Shown here piece after piece: positions 1,794 to 5,479 of a stretch of 64,000 nucleotides of DNA. The stretch's first letter is position 1. Every line of letters starts with the position of its first letter. The DNA is taken from NCBI GenBank assembly GCA_051251855.1, contig JBPOGI010000005.1, positions 32,001 through 96,000 of the forward strand, given 5' to 3'. This DNA comes from Roseibacillus sp. (GTDB taxonomy: Bacteria > Verrucomicrobiota > Verrucomicrobiia > Verrucomicrobiales > Akkermansiaceae). The position numbers and the translations under genes are program-made. The notes beneath the pieces were generated by a model that was given only the letters and a program-made list of their open reading frames with translations, made no database searches and was not told the origin of the DNA.

Positions 1794-2795
1794 ATGAAAA
1801 CTTTCTTCTCCCTCCTCTTTTTTCTGACGTCATTTGCCTCCGCTACTGACAAGACCCTAGGTACCGAAAGGGATGCTGCTGTACGTTTGCAGATTCTGCT
1901 GGACCAAAAAATGTTCGGGCCTGGCTTCATTGACGGCAAACCAGGGACGTTTACCACTCGAGCCATTGAAGCCTATAATCGGGCGATGGGGCGTGATGAG
2001 GGTGATCGCACTATTATCCAAGCAGAGGCAGATGATTTGGTGACGAATACCTTTGTGACGACGACCGTGCCGTCGGTGGCGAAAAAATTTGTGAATCCCA
2101 AGCTGCCCTACAAGAGGGTTGAGCAGGCGGAAGAGCGGGCACTCACTTATCGGAGCTACTATGAATTTATGGCTGAGCGCTATCACACCTCGGAGAGTGT
2201 GCTTTATGAGTTGAATGGCAAAAACAAGACGTGGGGAGCGGCACCTGGGCGAACTTTGGTGGTGCCGAATGTGACGCCCTTTAAGATCGAGGATATCAAG
2301 CCCGGGCGCATGTATAAGAGTGGCGAAGGCGCTCTCGGCAAACGGAAGGTGATTATCGACACCAAGGAGCGGCAGATTCAGATTTATGAGATTCTTGATA
2401 AATCGATGGCGAGTACTGGGGCCTTGGCGGTGAGCGGCGAGGACGCGTATCGCTTGGTCGCCAGTTTTCCGACCACTCCTGGACAGGAAAAGTTTATCCA
2501 TCGCGGCACTTGGGAGCTGCGTAATACGATCGAGTGGCCGACTTGGCGCTACGATAAGCAGCTTTTGCAGGAAGGGAAGCGGGGCAAGGAAGCTCTCAAT
2601 ATTCCTGGGGGCCCGAACAATCCGGTTGGTGTTCTCTGGGCAGGATTGAGCAAAAGTGGAATTGGAATCCACGGCACGGATAGTCCTCGCACGATTGGCC
2701 GCGCTCGGAGTTCCGGCTGCTTCCGCCTTGCAAATTGGGATGCAGCTCGCATTCCGCTTGTGATTCGCCCAGGCGCGAAGGTGATTGTGAAGTAG
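1794..2795 (+). CDS. L,D-transpeptidase (YkuD family), secreted, with N-terminal peptidoglycan-binding-like segment
   Basis: Signal peptide, PGGPNNPVG, and catalytic region GIHGT...IGRARSSGCFRL. Confidence 0.9.
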   Translation: MKTFFSLLFFLTSFASATDKTLGTERDAAVRLQILLDQKMFGPGFIDGKPGTFTTRAIEAYNRAMGRDEGDRTIIQAEADDLVTNTFVTTTVPSVAKKFVNPKLPYKRVEQAEERALTYRSYYEFMAERYHTSESVLYELNGKNKTWGAAPGRTLVVPNVTPFKIEDIKPGRMYKSGEGALGKRKVIIDTKERQIQIYEILDKSMASTGALAVSGEDAYRLVASFPTTPGQEKFIHRGTWELRNTIEWPTWRYDKQLLQEGKRGKEALNIPGGPNNPVGVLWAGLSKSGIGIHGTDSPRTIGRARSSGCFRLANWDAARIPLVIRPGAKVIVK

Positions 2796-2814
2796 TCGCC
2801 GCTTTGCGGGAGAG

Positions 2815-3027
2815 CTACTTAAATAGTCCTGCTGCTTCTCCCTCGATGGGAAAACCGCCAGTGCGCTCTTTCTTGTAAAGCAGTTCGCCGTCTTTGCGGA
2901 TTTCGAAGATGCCTCCTTGGCCGGGAATGAGGGTGATTTCCTCGTCGCTGACGGTCTTGATTTCAGCCGACACACGGTCGGCTTCGGGGAGGTAGTTTCA
3001 TTTAGAGCAGTATTCGATCTCGATCAT
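2815..3027 (-). CDS. SelW/SelT/SelH (Rdx-family) selenoprotein, 70 aa, with in-frame UGA read as Sec
   Basis: Manual translation: MIEIEYCSK-U(TGA 3000..2998)-NYLPEADRVSAEIKTVSDEEITLIPGQGGIFEIRKDGELLYKKERTGGFPIEGEAAGLFK*. Rdx motifs I.YCxxU.Y, G.GG.FEI..DG and GFP are present, and a hairpin follows the UGA. Absent from the ORF track. Confidence 0.9.
2965..2983 (-). promoter_or_regulatory. Putative bacterial SECIS element (apical stem-loop)
   Basis: mRNA sense AGCCGAC-CGUGU-GUCGGCU: a perfect 7-bp stem starting 14 nt after the in-frame UGA, with G as the second loop base followed by U. Confidence 0.75.
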
Positions 3028-3077
3028 GGTGAGGAGAAGATGTGGGGCTTTCTGGATTTGGCCAATGAAAAGTTTGC

Positions 3078-3500
3078 TTACCGATGGGACTGCTCTTGCT
3101 GACTGATGAGGCTGGAGTTGATGGTCTCGAGGTCGTTGATGCGCTTGGCAAACGCTCCGTAGCGGACACAGAGCCCGAGGAGCCCGACGATGTAACTGAG
3201 TAGGCTGGCTGCAGTGAGGAGTGCGCCAGCCCCAGAAATCAGAGAATAGGCTCCTAAGTTACCTGCACCTGAGCTCGCGGAGGGTGATGAGGCTATCGAT
3301 GCTGCGATGCTTTGGAAGAGAAGGTAAGAAGCGACGACGGCAGTGGTAGTGCCCAGAATCAAACCGATGCCTCCTCCAAGCATCATCCAAGAGCCCCAAA
3401 ATTTCTTACCGCGATGGGCGATGATTGCAGAGGCGATCATGGCAATCGCGACCAAGACCGCGAGGACCGTAGAGATGAGCGCTGGTATCATAGAAGTCAT
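3078..3500 (-). CDS. Hypothetical 3-TM membrane protein (paralog 3 of a tandem triplet)
   Basis: Likely start MTSMIPALIS at 3500 within the longer 3078..4058 ORF. Three hydrophobic helices, IIAHRGKKFWGSW motif, short amphipathic C-tail. Confidence 0.75.
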   Translation of the reverse strand: MTSMIPALISTVLAVLVAIAMIASAIIAHRGKKFWGSWMMLGGGIGLILGTTTAVVASYLLFQSIAASIASSPSASSGAGNLGAYSLISGAGALLTAASLLSYIVGLLGLCVRYGAFAKRINDLETINSSLISQQEQSHR

Positions 3501-3547
3501 AGAACGATTGAACTGGATTCGGTAGTAAAGGGCAAGTTTTGCTCTTG

Positions 3548-3925
3548 TTAGGCAGAGTCCGAGTGGCGTTGGAGCTCGTCGCGCTCGGCTGCGAGCTGGA
3601 GGGCGAGTTTTTCGAGGTCGGCGGTTTCTTGGCTGAGAGTTTTCCAGTGCATGGTCATGAGGAAAGCGCCAATCCCCAAACTGAAAGCTGAGAGAGTGAT
3701 GAGCCAGCCAAAGAGCGAGAGAATCGAGCCCATGGAGTGAGGGGCGCCAATGAAGCTCAACGCTAAGAGGGCAACAACGGAAAGGAAGTAGCCGCAGATA
3801 GAGATAAGGACGGTCCACGTTCCTTTCGTCGCAAAGCCTCGATGGGCGAGGATGGCGGCAAAGAGAATGAGAAGTCCTAGTCCGAATGGAATGAGGAGAG
3901 CCAGAAGGTTGATAAAAGGGATCAT
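3548..3925 (-). CDS. Hypothetical 3-TM membrane protein (paralog 2)
   Basis: Three TM helices, ILAHRGFATKGTW, C-tail QETADLEKLALQL. Overlaps the upstream gene by 4 bp. Confidence 0.75.
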   Translation of the reverse strand: MIPFINLLALLIPFGLGLLILFAAILAHRGFATKGTWTVLISICGYFLSVVALLALSFIGAPHSMGSILSLFGWLITLSAFSLGIGAFLMTMHWKTLSQETADLEKLALQLAAERDELQRHSDSA

Positions 3926-4329
3926 GAACTAGGGCTGTTTGGGGGGAGGTTGCGTTGAGCCTGTTCTTTTGCTGCGGCGAGGGCGGAGGTGATTTCGAGA
4001 AGTTCCGAGCGCCGTTTGCCAGTGGCGCTCCAACGGGTGCAGAAGCCAAAGAAGGCAATCGGATAGAGTATGGCTCCGAGTATGAACAAAAAGTATGAGA
4101 TGATGAGCAGGCCGAAAGAGTGGGAGGAGCTTTGATCAGTCAGGAAAAACCAAAGTCCGAAGGCGACCATGATGGAGGTGGAAATGACCAAAAGAGTGGC
4201 GCCATATAAAAGGAGCCTGATTGCCCAAAATTGGGTTCCTTTTTGGGCTTTGAGTGCTCCAATGAAGAGGAGAACGACTGTGCTGAGGACTCCTGTTAAG
4301 AGAAGGGAAATGGTGAGCTGTTCGTTCAC
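3922..4329 (-). CDS. Hypothetical 3-TM membrane protein (paralog 1)
   Basis: GTG start, three TM helices, LKAQKGTQFWAI, C-tail KRRSELLEITSAL. Confidence 0.75.
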   Translation of the reverse strand: MNEQLTISLLLTGVLSTVVLLFIGALKAQKGTQFWAIRLLLYGATLLVISTSIMVAFGLWFFLTDQSSSHSFGLLIISYFLFILGAILYPIAFFGFCTRWSATGKRRSELLEITSALAAAKEQAQRNLPPNSPSS

Positions 4330-4564
4330 GAGACTTTGGTTTTAGCGCTTTGCTGGCATTGGGTCACCGAGAAAAATTTGAGTGGTAAGTGGTGTGTGCC
4401 TCTGGCGCTTGGAGATGAATTCAAGCATTCTGCCTGTATGGGCTTAAGTGTGGGTTGAGTGGTAGTCAGCGGCTGGAAGCCCCAGAAACGGACTGTCGTT
4501 GGAAGCGTCAGCTACTTTTCGGAAAGGTCGTTTTTCCGTTTCCATTTTCTGAGCTTGAGGCAAG

Positions 4565-5479
4565 TTGGGAGCCTTGAGCGACGCAGTGTCAGAGGAAGCA
4601 GCAGTTGAGGTCCCCAGTGCGATGGAGGACTTGAAGGTCTTGGTGAAGGCGCGCCTGAATTTGTTTGTGATTATCACGACCTTTTTCGGCTACGCGATCG
4701 CTTGTCGGCATGGGGGCTGGGAGTTTTGGACGTTGTTGCATCTGATTCTGGGGACGACGGCTTGTGCCTTTGGTTCGGCGGTCTTCAACCAGCTTTCGGA
4801 GGTGGATAGTGATGCCTTGATGAAGCGGACCGCGAATCGGCCTTTGCCGTCGCGCCGGATGGGGATTGTGAAGGCGTTTGTGATTGGCTGGGGTCTCTCG
4901 GCGTTCGGAATTGTGCACTTGTCCGCGATGGTGGGCGCTGTTCCTGGGGTGCTGGCGGCGGTGACGATTGCGACTTATGTCTTCATTTACACCCCGATGA
5001 AGAAGTGGAGTTCGGCCAATACTTTGGTGGGGGCGATTCCGGGAGCTTTGCCGCCGTTGATTGGGTGGACTGCAGGCGGTGGGGGGCTGGCGGAGGCTGG
5101 GGGCTGGTATTTGTTTGCTCTCCTCTTCCTCTGGCAATTACCGCACTTTGTCGCCATTAACTGGCTGTGCCGCGAAGAATATGAGCTAGCGGGCTATAAA
5201 ATGTGGTCGAATGGCGATGTCAGCGGAAAGCGGAGCGTGGGCTTGGCGGTGGGTTTTTCGGTGGGGTTGGGAGTTTTGGCGGCAGCTGTGATTCCGTTGG
5301 GGATTGCGAGTTGGCCCTTTGTGGTTCTTGGCTTGGCGCTGGCTGCAATGCTGGTGGCGACGGGTCAGCGGTTTTTGAAGAGCGGGGAGCGAGTGCACTT
5401 TCGTAAGTTTTTCTTGGCTACTTTGCTGTATTTGCCCCTGGTTTTGGTGGCTTTGCTGATTTTTTGGCGGAAGATTTAA
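4565..5479 (+). CDS. ctaB: Protoheme IX farnesyltransferase (heme O synthase)
   Basis: NQ..E.D.DALMKRTANRPLPS, YTPMKK, VGAIPGALPPLIGW, LWQLPHF. Start codon uncertain (TTG at 4565 or 4574). Confidence 0.95.
   Translation: MGALSDAVSEEAAVEVPSAMEDLKVLVKARLNLFVIITTFFGYAIACRHGGWEFWTLLHLILGTTACAFGSAVFNQLSEVDSDALMKRTANRPLPSRRMGIVKAFVIGWGLSAFGIVHLSAMVGAVPGVLAAVTIATYVFIYTPMKKWSSANTLVGAIPGALPPLIGWTAGGGGLAEAGGWYLFALLFLWQLPHFVAINWLCREEYELAGYKMWSNGDVSGKRSVGLAVGFSVGLGVLAAAVIPLGIASWPFVVLGLALAAMLVATGQRFLKSGERVHFRKFFLATLLYLPLVLVALLIFWRKI

What the first reader, a model, noticed from the sequence alone, without database searches (positions are those of the whole stretch)
2815..3027. Hidden selenoprotein gene: SelW/Rdx family with CxxU motif and SECIS hairpin
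Seen: a minus-strand frame from ATG at 3027 reads MIEIEYCSK, then TGA, then 60 more codons of typical Rdx sequence (NYLPEA...PGQGGIFEIRKDG...GGFP) to TAG at 2815. The UGA sits exactly at the second position of the redox CxxC/CxxU motif. A perfect 7-bp stem with a CGUGU loop starts 14 nt downstream. Established: SelW/SelT/SelH proteins use CxxU, and bacterial SECIS elements are stem-loops just 3' of the UGA with a G near the start of the apical loop. Inference: this organism recodes UGA as selenocysteine. Gene callers will truncate or miss the gene, and the ORF track does miss it.
Basis: partly seen in the sequence, partly recalled or inferred. Interest (0 to 1): 0.85.

Follow-up and report, generated by a model that had tools for sequence, protein, structure and literature searches.

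The report
SelW-like selenoprotein gene, known family
The apparent stop codon inside this small gene of a Roseibacillus-like bacterium is very likely read as selenocysteine, giving a predicted redox protein of the SelW family known since 2005, which gene finders cut short: real, but ordinary.

Summary
Confirmed and ordinary. The minus-strand frame 3027-2815 encodes a 70-residue Rdx/SelW-like protein with TGA at the second position of CxxU (Pfam PF10262 61.7 bits, cut-off 22.6). The genome has selA, selB with SECIS-binding wings, selC and selD. An Rdx gene with TGA at this codon occurs in 20 of 61 genomes searched, this one included. All 20 carry selA; none of the 31 without selA has an Rdx match. 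The hairpin meets the published bacterial SECIS rules and is conserved beyond protein constraint: 38 of 40 third-position pairs are kept, against 14 +/- 3 after synonymous recoding. The predicted fold matches bacterial SelW-related structures (TM 0.90). Selenium incorporation, expression and substrate are untested. The family was the most abundant selenoprotein family in the Sargasso Sea survey (PMC1088965), and Sec use was already listed for Verrucomicrobia (PMC5029168 supplement). The scan found this kind of gene before on other DNA (387 notes match the keywords). Side note: the lineage's tRNA-Sec is of the 12-bp type (27 of 27), a variant described in other bacteria.

The parts
2815..3027 (-). 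SelW-like (Rdx family) selenoprotein gene, 70 codons plus TAG
   Evidence: PF10262 61.7 bits, TIGR02174 43.9 bits over cut-off 34.2; start supported by in-frame stops within three codons upstream in some orthologues and no upstream conservation
3007..3009 (-). Cys7, first residue of CxxU
   Evidence: invariant in 26 of 26 aligned rows
2998..3000 (-). in-frame UGA, predicted Sec10
   Evidence: TGA in 20 of 20 orthologues including this one; aligns with the second Cys of CxxC in PDB 2fa8, 3dex and 2ojl
2965..2983 (-). SECIS hairpin: 7-bp stem (6-bp conserved core 2982-2966), loop CGUGU 2976-2972, invariant G at 2975
2899..2916 (-). GGIFEI, the Rdx tGxFEI(V) signature
   Evidence: G39 and F41 invariant in 26 rows; motif as given in PMC10650576
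2815..2973 (-). 52-aa fragment from the GTG inside the SECIS loop, the form that gene callers report; an annotation artefact

Best explanation
This gene likely encodes a 70-residue selenoprotein of the Rdx/SelW-like family, with its in-frame UGA likely read as selenocysteine and the product predicted to act as a small thiol-selenol oxidoreductase. Decoding (inferred from the E. coli model): SelD makes selenophosphate, SelA converts Ser-tRNA-Sec to Sec-tRNA-Sec, and SelB binds the hairpin 21 nt behind the UGA through its winged-helix domains and delivers Sec in competition with release factor 2. Catalysis (inferred, about 0.65): Sec10 sits in the loop between strand 1 and helix 1, attacks a protein disulfide or oxidised thiol, and Cys7 resolves it to a selenenylsulfide. 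Re-reduction would more likely come from the thioredoxin system than from glutathione. The protein has no N-terminal extension before strand 1, so it is likely cytoplasmic. The substrate is not known, and gene context gives no lead.
For: Shown: (1) family and motif; (2) selA TIGR00474 455.6 bits, selB TIGR00475 331.1 bits with SelB-wing_2 and wing_3, selD 375.9 bits with its own in-frame TGA and a GGUCU-loop hairpin, tRNA-Sec RF01852 63.9 bits with UCA anticodon; (3) TGA at the same codon in 20 of 20 orthologues from 61 genomes; all 20 genomes have selA, 19 of 20 have tRNA-Sec at E <= 1e-9, and 0 of 31 selA-negative genomes have an Rdx match; (4) stem conserved with compensatory changes, 117 of 120 cells paired in the 6 core pairs against 83.9 +/- 4.7 after synonymous recoding; third-position pairs 38 of 40 against 14.3 +/- 3.0; loop G followed by U or G in 20 of 20 against 7.1 +/- 2.1, kept across Arg, Gly and Ser codons; slid controls pair 8-51% against 91%; (5) in a GTDB scan, 22 of 25 examined loci have TGA with 5-6 of 6 stem pairs, and the 3 TGC loci keep only 2 of 6 (some of these genomes are probably the same as); (6) AlphaFold model pLDDT 94.1, TM 0.90 and rmsd 1.1 to PDB 2fa8, TM 0.66 to mouse SelW 2npb; (7) thioredoxin reductase over its cut-off, no glutathione synthetase over its cut-off. 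Established: the bSECIS rules and the family listing (PMC13188914).
Against: There is no direct proof of selenium in the protein and no expression data. The hairpin alone is only moderately unusual. The orthologues are related, so the recoding controls overstate significance, and they use this genome's codon usage for all rows. The loop CGUGU does not have the N1-N2 closing pair of the commonest published pattern. Ten of 30 selA-positive genomes have no match to the gene, so it is dispensable. The model was folded with Cys in place of Sec. Which residue attacks first rests on my recall of mammalian SelW trapping work, not on a call. The glutathione inference rests on one HMM (TIGR01380), and other synthetases were not searched.
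Confidence: 0.92

Rival explanations
1. The gene is a pseudogene with a nonsense mutation, or the TGA is a sequencing error in a Cys codon.
For: TGC/TGT to TGA is one base change, and 93 of 149 aligned distant homologues have CxxC. No raw reads were available.
Against: The same TGA stands in 19 other genomes down to 39% identity, with an intact frame after it. The gene occurs only with selA, and the hairpin is under RNA-level selection.
Confidence: 0.01
2. UGA is reassigned genome-wide to Trp or Gly (tables 4 or 25), so the motif is CxxW or CxxG.
For: 35 of 149 database homologues read CxxW and 2 read WxxW; P0003 has W at this site.
Against: TGA ends 327 of 1569 long ORFs in this genome, release factor 2 is present, and the only UCA tRNA at ARAGORN's default threshold is the Sec type. 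One CxxW row (P0026) is nearly identical to locus L081, which has TGA and the hairpin, so the W rows are probably gene-caller read-through. I did not check their DNA.
Confidence: 0.01
3. Sec is inserted, but the protein is not a catalytic oxidoreductase: it binds a metal or metalloid, stores selenium, or acts as a redox-switched adaptor.
For: The functions of bacterial SELENOW-like proteins are described as largely uncharacterised (PMC13188914). Mammalian SelW binds glutathione and 14-3-3 proteins (PMC10650576). No redox partner is conserved next to the gene.
Against: Thioredoxin-like fold with both Cys7 and Sec10 retained in every orthologue; Cys homologues keep CxxC; no metal-resistance gene among the 23 neighbours scanned.
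Confidence: 0.25
4. The real product is the 52-aa protein that starts at the GTG behind the UGA.
For: 12 of 13 database homologues are 51-53 aa long.
Against: That fragment lacks strand 1 and the redox motif of the fold. Residues 1-18 are conserved, with Cys7 invariant.
Confidence: 0.01

Closest known systems
Bacterial SelW-like (SELENOW-like) selenoproteins, Pfam PF10262 Rdx, NCBIfam TIGR02174 CXXU_selWTH (PMC1088965; PMC13188914 table, 'predicted with high confidence')
   Same: CxxU motif, GxFEI motif, small size, in-ORF bacterial SECIS, selABCD-positive host; both profiles passed over their cut-offs.
   Different: Only the lineage: it falls in a group of 16 rows, mostly Roseibacillus and other Akkermansiaceae/Verrucomicrobiaceae records (SH-aLRT 97 in a quick tree). 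I found no paper on this lineage's SelW.
NCBIfam NF041051 SelTWH_Campy
   Same: Best-scoring profile, 77.5 bits over residues 2-68.
   Different: Below the curated cut-off of 88 bits, so not a member of that equivalog.
Cys-type bacterial Rdx proteins with solved structures (2fa8 Agrobacterium, 3dex Streptomyces, 2ojl Bordetella, 2p0g Vibrio, 2oka and 2obk Pseudomonas)
   Same: Same predicted fold, TM 0.85-0.90, 27-39% identity.
   Different: CxxC without SECIS; longer C-terminal tail; they sit on the other side of the main split in the quick tree, judged from Cys-type loci L079, L080 and L083.
Mammalian SELENOW and MIEN1/Rdx12
   Same: Fold (TM 0.66 to 2npb, 0.74 to 2ljk) and CxxU in SelW.
   Different: SECIS in the 3' UTR (established knowledge); the 14-3-3 partners are eukaryotic only; identity 17% and 31%.
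12-bp (7/5) bacterial tRNA-Sec (PMC5330540)
   Same: 12 nt between T-loop and G73 in 27 of 27 tRNA-Sec genes from this order, with one extra nucleotide at the base of the 5' acceptor strand.
   Different: Verrucomicrobia are not named in that paper's main text or held text supplements; its figures S1 and S2 were not visible.

Membership tests
Rdx / SelW-like (PF10262, TIGR02174) | Profile score over the curated cut-off | tested here: met
   61.7 vs 22.6 bits; 43.9 vs 34.2 bits (scored with C for U); 53.3 bits on the DNA with the stop read through
Rdx / SelW-like (PF10262, TIGR02174) | CxxU or CxxC after the first strand | tested here: met
   C7-S-K-TGA10; strand 2-7, helix 13-24 in the model
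Rdx / SelW-like (PF10262, TIGR02174) | tGxFEI(V) motif | tested here: met
   GGIFEI at residues 38-43
Rdx / SelW-like (PF10262, TIGR02174) | Rdx-type thioredoxin-like fold | tested here: met
   predicted model, pLDDT 94.1; TM 0.90 to 2fa8
Rdx / SelW-like (PF10262, TIGR02174) | Thiol-based redox activity | not testable with these tools
   needs an assay; reviews also call the family's function unknown
NF041051 SelTWH_Campy | Score of 88 bits or more | tested here: not met
   77.5 bits
Bacterial SelB/SECIS selenoprotein gene | selA, selB, selC and selD in the genome | tested here: met
   all over their cut-offs
Bacterial SelB/SECIS selenoprotein gene | bSECIS: loop 3-9 nt, stem 4-16 bp, G in the first two loop positions, 16-37 nt from UGA, MFE <= -7.5 | tested here: met
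   loop 5 nt, stem 7 bp, G second and followed by U, 21 nt, -11.5 kcal/mol
Bacterial SelB/SECIS selenoprotein gene | UGA aligned with Cys in homologues and conserved as UGA with the hairpin | tested here: met
Bacterial SelB/SECIS selenoprotein gene | Selenium in the expressed protein | not testable with these tools
   needs 75Se labelling or mass spectrometry
Canonical 8/5 bacterial tRNA-Sec (the genome's selC) | 13-bp acceptor plus T stem | tested here: not met
   12 nt between T-loop and G73 in 27 of 27; fits the 7/5 variant of PMC5330540

The most novel reading that the evidence does not exclude
In Verrucomicrobiales this Rdx is a selenium-obligate redox protein: the gene is lost rather than converted to cysteine when the Sec machinery is lost (0 of 31 selA-negative genomes carry any Rdx), and it is decoded by a lineage-wide 12-bp tRNA-Sec. 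Cultured relatives (Roseibacillus persicicus KCTC 12988, Oceaniferula spumae NT6N) would then be direct models for the open question of what bacterial SelW does and why it needs selenium.
Probability: 0.4. Interest if true: 0.4.

Novelty: new member of a known kind. Interest (0 to 1): 0.2.

Why it matters
It is an annotation fix: the gene and its orthologues are stored as 52-residue fragments without the active site, or with Trp in place of Sec. It adds a common selenoprotein to a lineage for which a 2016 survey counted only 1-4 selenoproteins per genome (PMC5029168 supplement file 3). The function of bacterial SelW-like proteins is still open, and two named cultured strains carry the gene with TGA and hairpin. 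Nothing here changes how Sec decoding or the family is understood.

Tried and rejected
1) Expression: no RNA holder was listed; this says nothing for or against expression. Only contigs could be laid: X4 matches the stretch without differences but may be the source of this DNA, and the other three runs gave short pieces from relatives, so no raw-read test of the TGA was possible. 2) One search compared backgrounds at -11.5 kcal/mol while the hairpin scored -10.4 by that script; the counts were redone at -10.4 and only those are used. 3) ARAGORN at a lowered threshold gave 962 tRNA calls, mostly noise; not used. 4) Gene context as a guide to function: the L,D-transpeptidase gene lies downstream in 7 of 21 loci and the small membrane-protein genes upstream in 6 of 21, all within the genus; beyond the genus the 23 neighbours scanned vary. 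Rejected as a functional link. 5) No sigma-70 promoter match in 2600-4600, and no terminator match at the gene's 3' end on its strand. 6) The tree is the quick one, with 84 of 135 inner branches open; no donor or order of events is claimed. Rows over 130 aa or without the motif were left out (139 rows kept). 7) The names that public sources give these proteins could not be looked up, so how RefSeq annotates the orthologues stays open. 8) 16S motifs gave no usable rRNA gene; the placement rests on named relatives. 9) Locus L084 (match to residues 30-55 only) was left out. 10) Paper searches with no relevant hit; the library lacks most subscription papers, so absence from print is not shown. 11) No complex prediction was sent, as no partner is claimed.

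Full report
Observation. On the minus strand, ATG at 3027 opens MIEIEYCSK, TGA follows at 3000-2998, and 60 codons run to TAG at 2817-2815. Read with TGA=U the product has 70 residues. The ORF list misses it. The hairpin AGCCGAC-CGUGU-GUCGGCU lies at 2983-2965, 14 nt behind the UGA, with its loop 21 nt behind it and an energy of -11.5 kcal/mol.

Is the hairpin more than chance? Alone, only moderately. On 47-100 nt windows 8-14 of 200 shuffles fold as well. A hairpin that fits my simplified SECIS rule and is at least as stable follows 6 of 327 terminal TGA codons, 18 of 1242 TAA/TAG stops and 25 of 7482 Cys codons in long ORFs of this genome, and arises in 151 of 20000 synonymous recodings of the downstream peptide (one search used a mismatched threshold and is superseded). 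The case therefore rests on comparison with relatives.

Family. The protein scores 61.7 bits on Pfam Rdx PF10262 (cut-off 22.6) and 43.9 on TIGR02174 CXXU_selWTH (34.2); NF041051 SelTWH_Campy scores 77.5, below its 88. In PDB sequence hits the TGA aligns with the second Cys of CxxC. An AlphaFold model built on 26 sequences, with Cys for Sec, has pLDDT 94.1 and matches 2fa8 at TM 0.90, rmsd 1.1, and mouse SelW at TM 0.66. It is the only Rdx match in the genome.

Machinery. The genome (13 contigs, 95.4% complete) has selA on C1, selB on C7 with SelB-wing_2 and wing_3 domains, selD on C7, and tRNA-Sec with anticodon UCA on C1, all over their cut-offs and not clustered. selD has its own in-frame TGA (SSCAG-U-ASK) with a GGUCU-loop hairpin 32 nt behind it. 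UGA is still a stop: it ends 327 of 1569 long ORFs and release factor 2 is present.

Relatives. Of 61 genomes searched (this one, 8 of the genus, 28 more of the family, 24 of the order), 20 match the protein; each has TGA at codon 10 and an open frame after it, down to 39% identity. One genome also has a Cys-type paralogue. The family profile finds the same 20 genomes. selA matches in 30 of 61: all 20 gene carriers are among them, 10 selA-positive genomes lack the gene, and none of the 31 selA-negative genomes has an Rdx match. tRNA-Sec was found at E <= 1e-9 in 27 of 61, including 19 of the 20 carriers. These genomes are kin, so the counts are not independent trials, and some are incomplete. 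A GTDB scan returned 26 loci; of the 25 examined, 22 have TGA with 5-6 of 6 stem pairs and 3 have TGC with 2 of 6. The closest named records are Roseibacillus (87-89% identity), which places the window in or near that genus of Verrucomicrobiales; the runs that hold the stretch are labelled seawater metagenome and may be its source.

SECIS under selection. In the 20 orthologues the 7-pair stem is 91.4% paired, against 8-51% for slid versions, and 4 pairs show changes on both sides; the outer pair is unpaired in 9 of 20, so the core is 6 bp. Because the stem encodes the conserved peptide ADRVSA, I recoded each row synonymously 5000 times. Observed against recoded: two third-position pairs 38 of 40 vs 14.3 +/- 3.0 (maximum 26); six core pairs 117 of 120 vs 83.9 +/- 4.7 (maximum 99); loop G followed by U or G 20 of 20 vs 7.1 +/- 2.1 (maximum 14). 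The loop codon is CGT, CGG, AGT or GGT and never CGC, the commonest Arg codon in this genome at 40%. The control ignores relatedness and uses one codon table, so it overstates significance, but GCC/TCG versus GCT/TCA swaps inside an unchanged peptide are what RNA-level constraint predicts. The element meets the four bSECIS constraints in PMC13188914 (section 5 read), though its loop lacks the usual N1-N2 pair.

Annotation. Of 13 close database homologues, 12 are 51-53 aa long; the 9 of these that I aligned begin at the GTG inside the SECIS loop, and the 13th has Trp at the Sec site. Among 149 of 150 distant representatives aligned, 93 read CxxC, 35 CxxW, 16 lack the region and 5 are other. I take the W rows as read-through artefacts; one is nearly identical to a TGA locus, the rest were not checked.

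Mechanism. Shown: codon, hairpin, machinery, co-occurrence, predicted fold. Inferred from the established bacterial pathway: SelB bound to the hairpin delivers Sec-tRNA-Sec to the UGA. Inferred with less certainty (about 0.65): Sec10 in the loop after strand 1 is the nucleophile and Cys7 resolves (the order is recalled from mammalian SelW work, not from a call), and the thioredoxin system recycles it, since thioredoxin reductase passes its cut-off and TIGR01380 glutathione synthetase does not. The main rival is a non-catalytic binding or switch role. The neighbourhood gives no substrate: the gene converges on an L,D-transpeptidase gene 19 bp away and follows three small predicted membrane-protein genes, an arrangement seen only within the genus.

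What is known. SelW-like with CxxU was the most abundant family, 48 genes, in the Sargasso Sea survey (PMC1088965, passages). PMC1794560 (passages) notes that SelW-like has few Cys homologues in Sec-using organisms. PMC13188914 (abstract, sections 5 and 10, passages) lists it as predicted with high confidence and functionally largely uncharacterised. PMC10650576 (passages) gives the Rdx motifs. PMC5029168 (passages and supplement rows) counts 35 organisms with SelW-like and lists Rubritalea marina and two single-cell Verrucomicrobia genomes as having 1-4 selenoproteins, without naming the families in the rows I saw; so Sec use in this phylum is on record. PMC5330540 (passages, held text supplements) describes the 12-bp tRNA-Sec; its supplementary figures were not visible and might list this lineage. 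PMC7609411 and PMC4807772 (passages) added nothing on this point. Searches pairing Roseibacillus, Akkermansiaceae or Verrucomicrobia with Sec terms found nothing relevant, in a library that lacks most subscription papers.

Earlier scan notes, unchecked: at least seven other candidate selenoprotein genes in this genome, 387 notes matching the SelW/Rdx/CxxU keywords in at least 376 genomes, and one on the short-arm tRNA-Sec in Verrucomicrobiota, which agrees with my own count of 27 of 27.

Verdict. A real, hidden selenoprotein gene, a new member of a known family. Confidence in Sec decoding about 0.97, in the oxidoreductase role about 0.65; interest 0.2.

Noticed in passing
G000:C1:329166-329259 (L008) and L032-L057: tRNA-Sec has 12 nt between T-loop and G73 in 27 of 27 genomes (7/5 type). 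The 5' strand reads GGAGAG-U-N, and N often covaries with position 66 (G:C or U:A), which suggests a bulged U; the T-stem has one or two mismatches in 25 of 27.
   Followed up: partly
G000:C7:93121-94050 (L005): selD is itself a predicted selenoprotein gene, with in-frame TGA and an fdhF-like GGUCU-loop hairpin 32 nt downstream.
   Followed up: partly
G000:C1:1810543-1811745 (L001): SelA matches TIGR00474 only to about position 408 of 455 here and in several genomes of the genus, while other genera match to 453-454; the C-terminus may be diverged or shortened.
   Followed up: no
window 3078-4329, minus strand: Three tandem small hydrophobic ORFs (about 149, 125 and 135 aa) upstream of the gene; weakly paralogous (E 7e-11 and 4e-4), no Pfam or NCBIfam match; nearest Atlas clusters are Verrucomicrobiota hypothetical proteins.
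   Followed up: partly
G000:C1 + strand near 1403243; C6 + strand near 417091 and 420847: Long ORFs that end in TGA followed by a GGUCU-loop or similar hairpin and an open frame; possible further selenoprotein genes.
   Followed up: no
G000:C10:114076-115599: Array of 10 tRNA genes, mostly second copies, as in phage or island tRNA clusters.
   Followed up: no
G000:C1:686953-687039: Second tRNA-Trp(CCA) call of 87 nt, longer than the 76-nt one at C1:1605262 and about 2.4 kb from prfB.
   Followed up: no
L031 (G019:C31:204094-204318): One relative carries both the UGA-type gene and a CxxC-type Rdx paralogue.
   Followed up: no
L081, L082: Two Gammaproteobacteria records carry the UGA gene with the same CGUGU-loop hairpin sequence as the Verrucomicrobiales genes, at 46% protein identity.
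   Followed up: no
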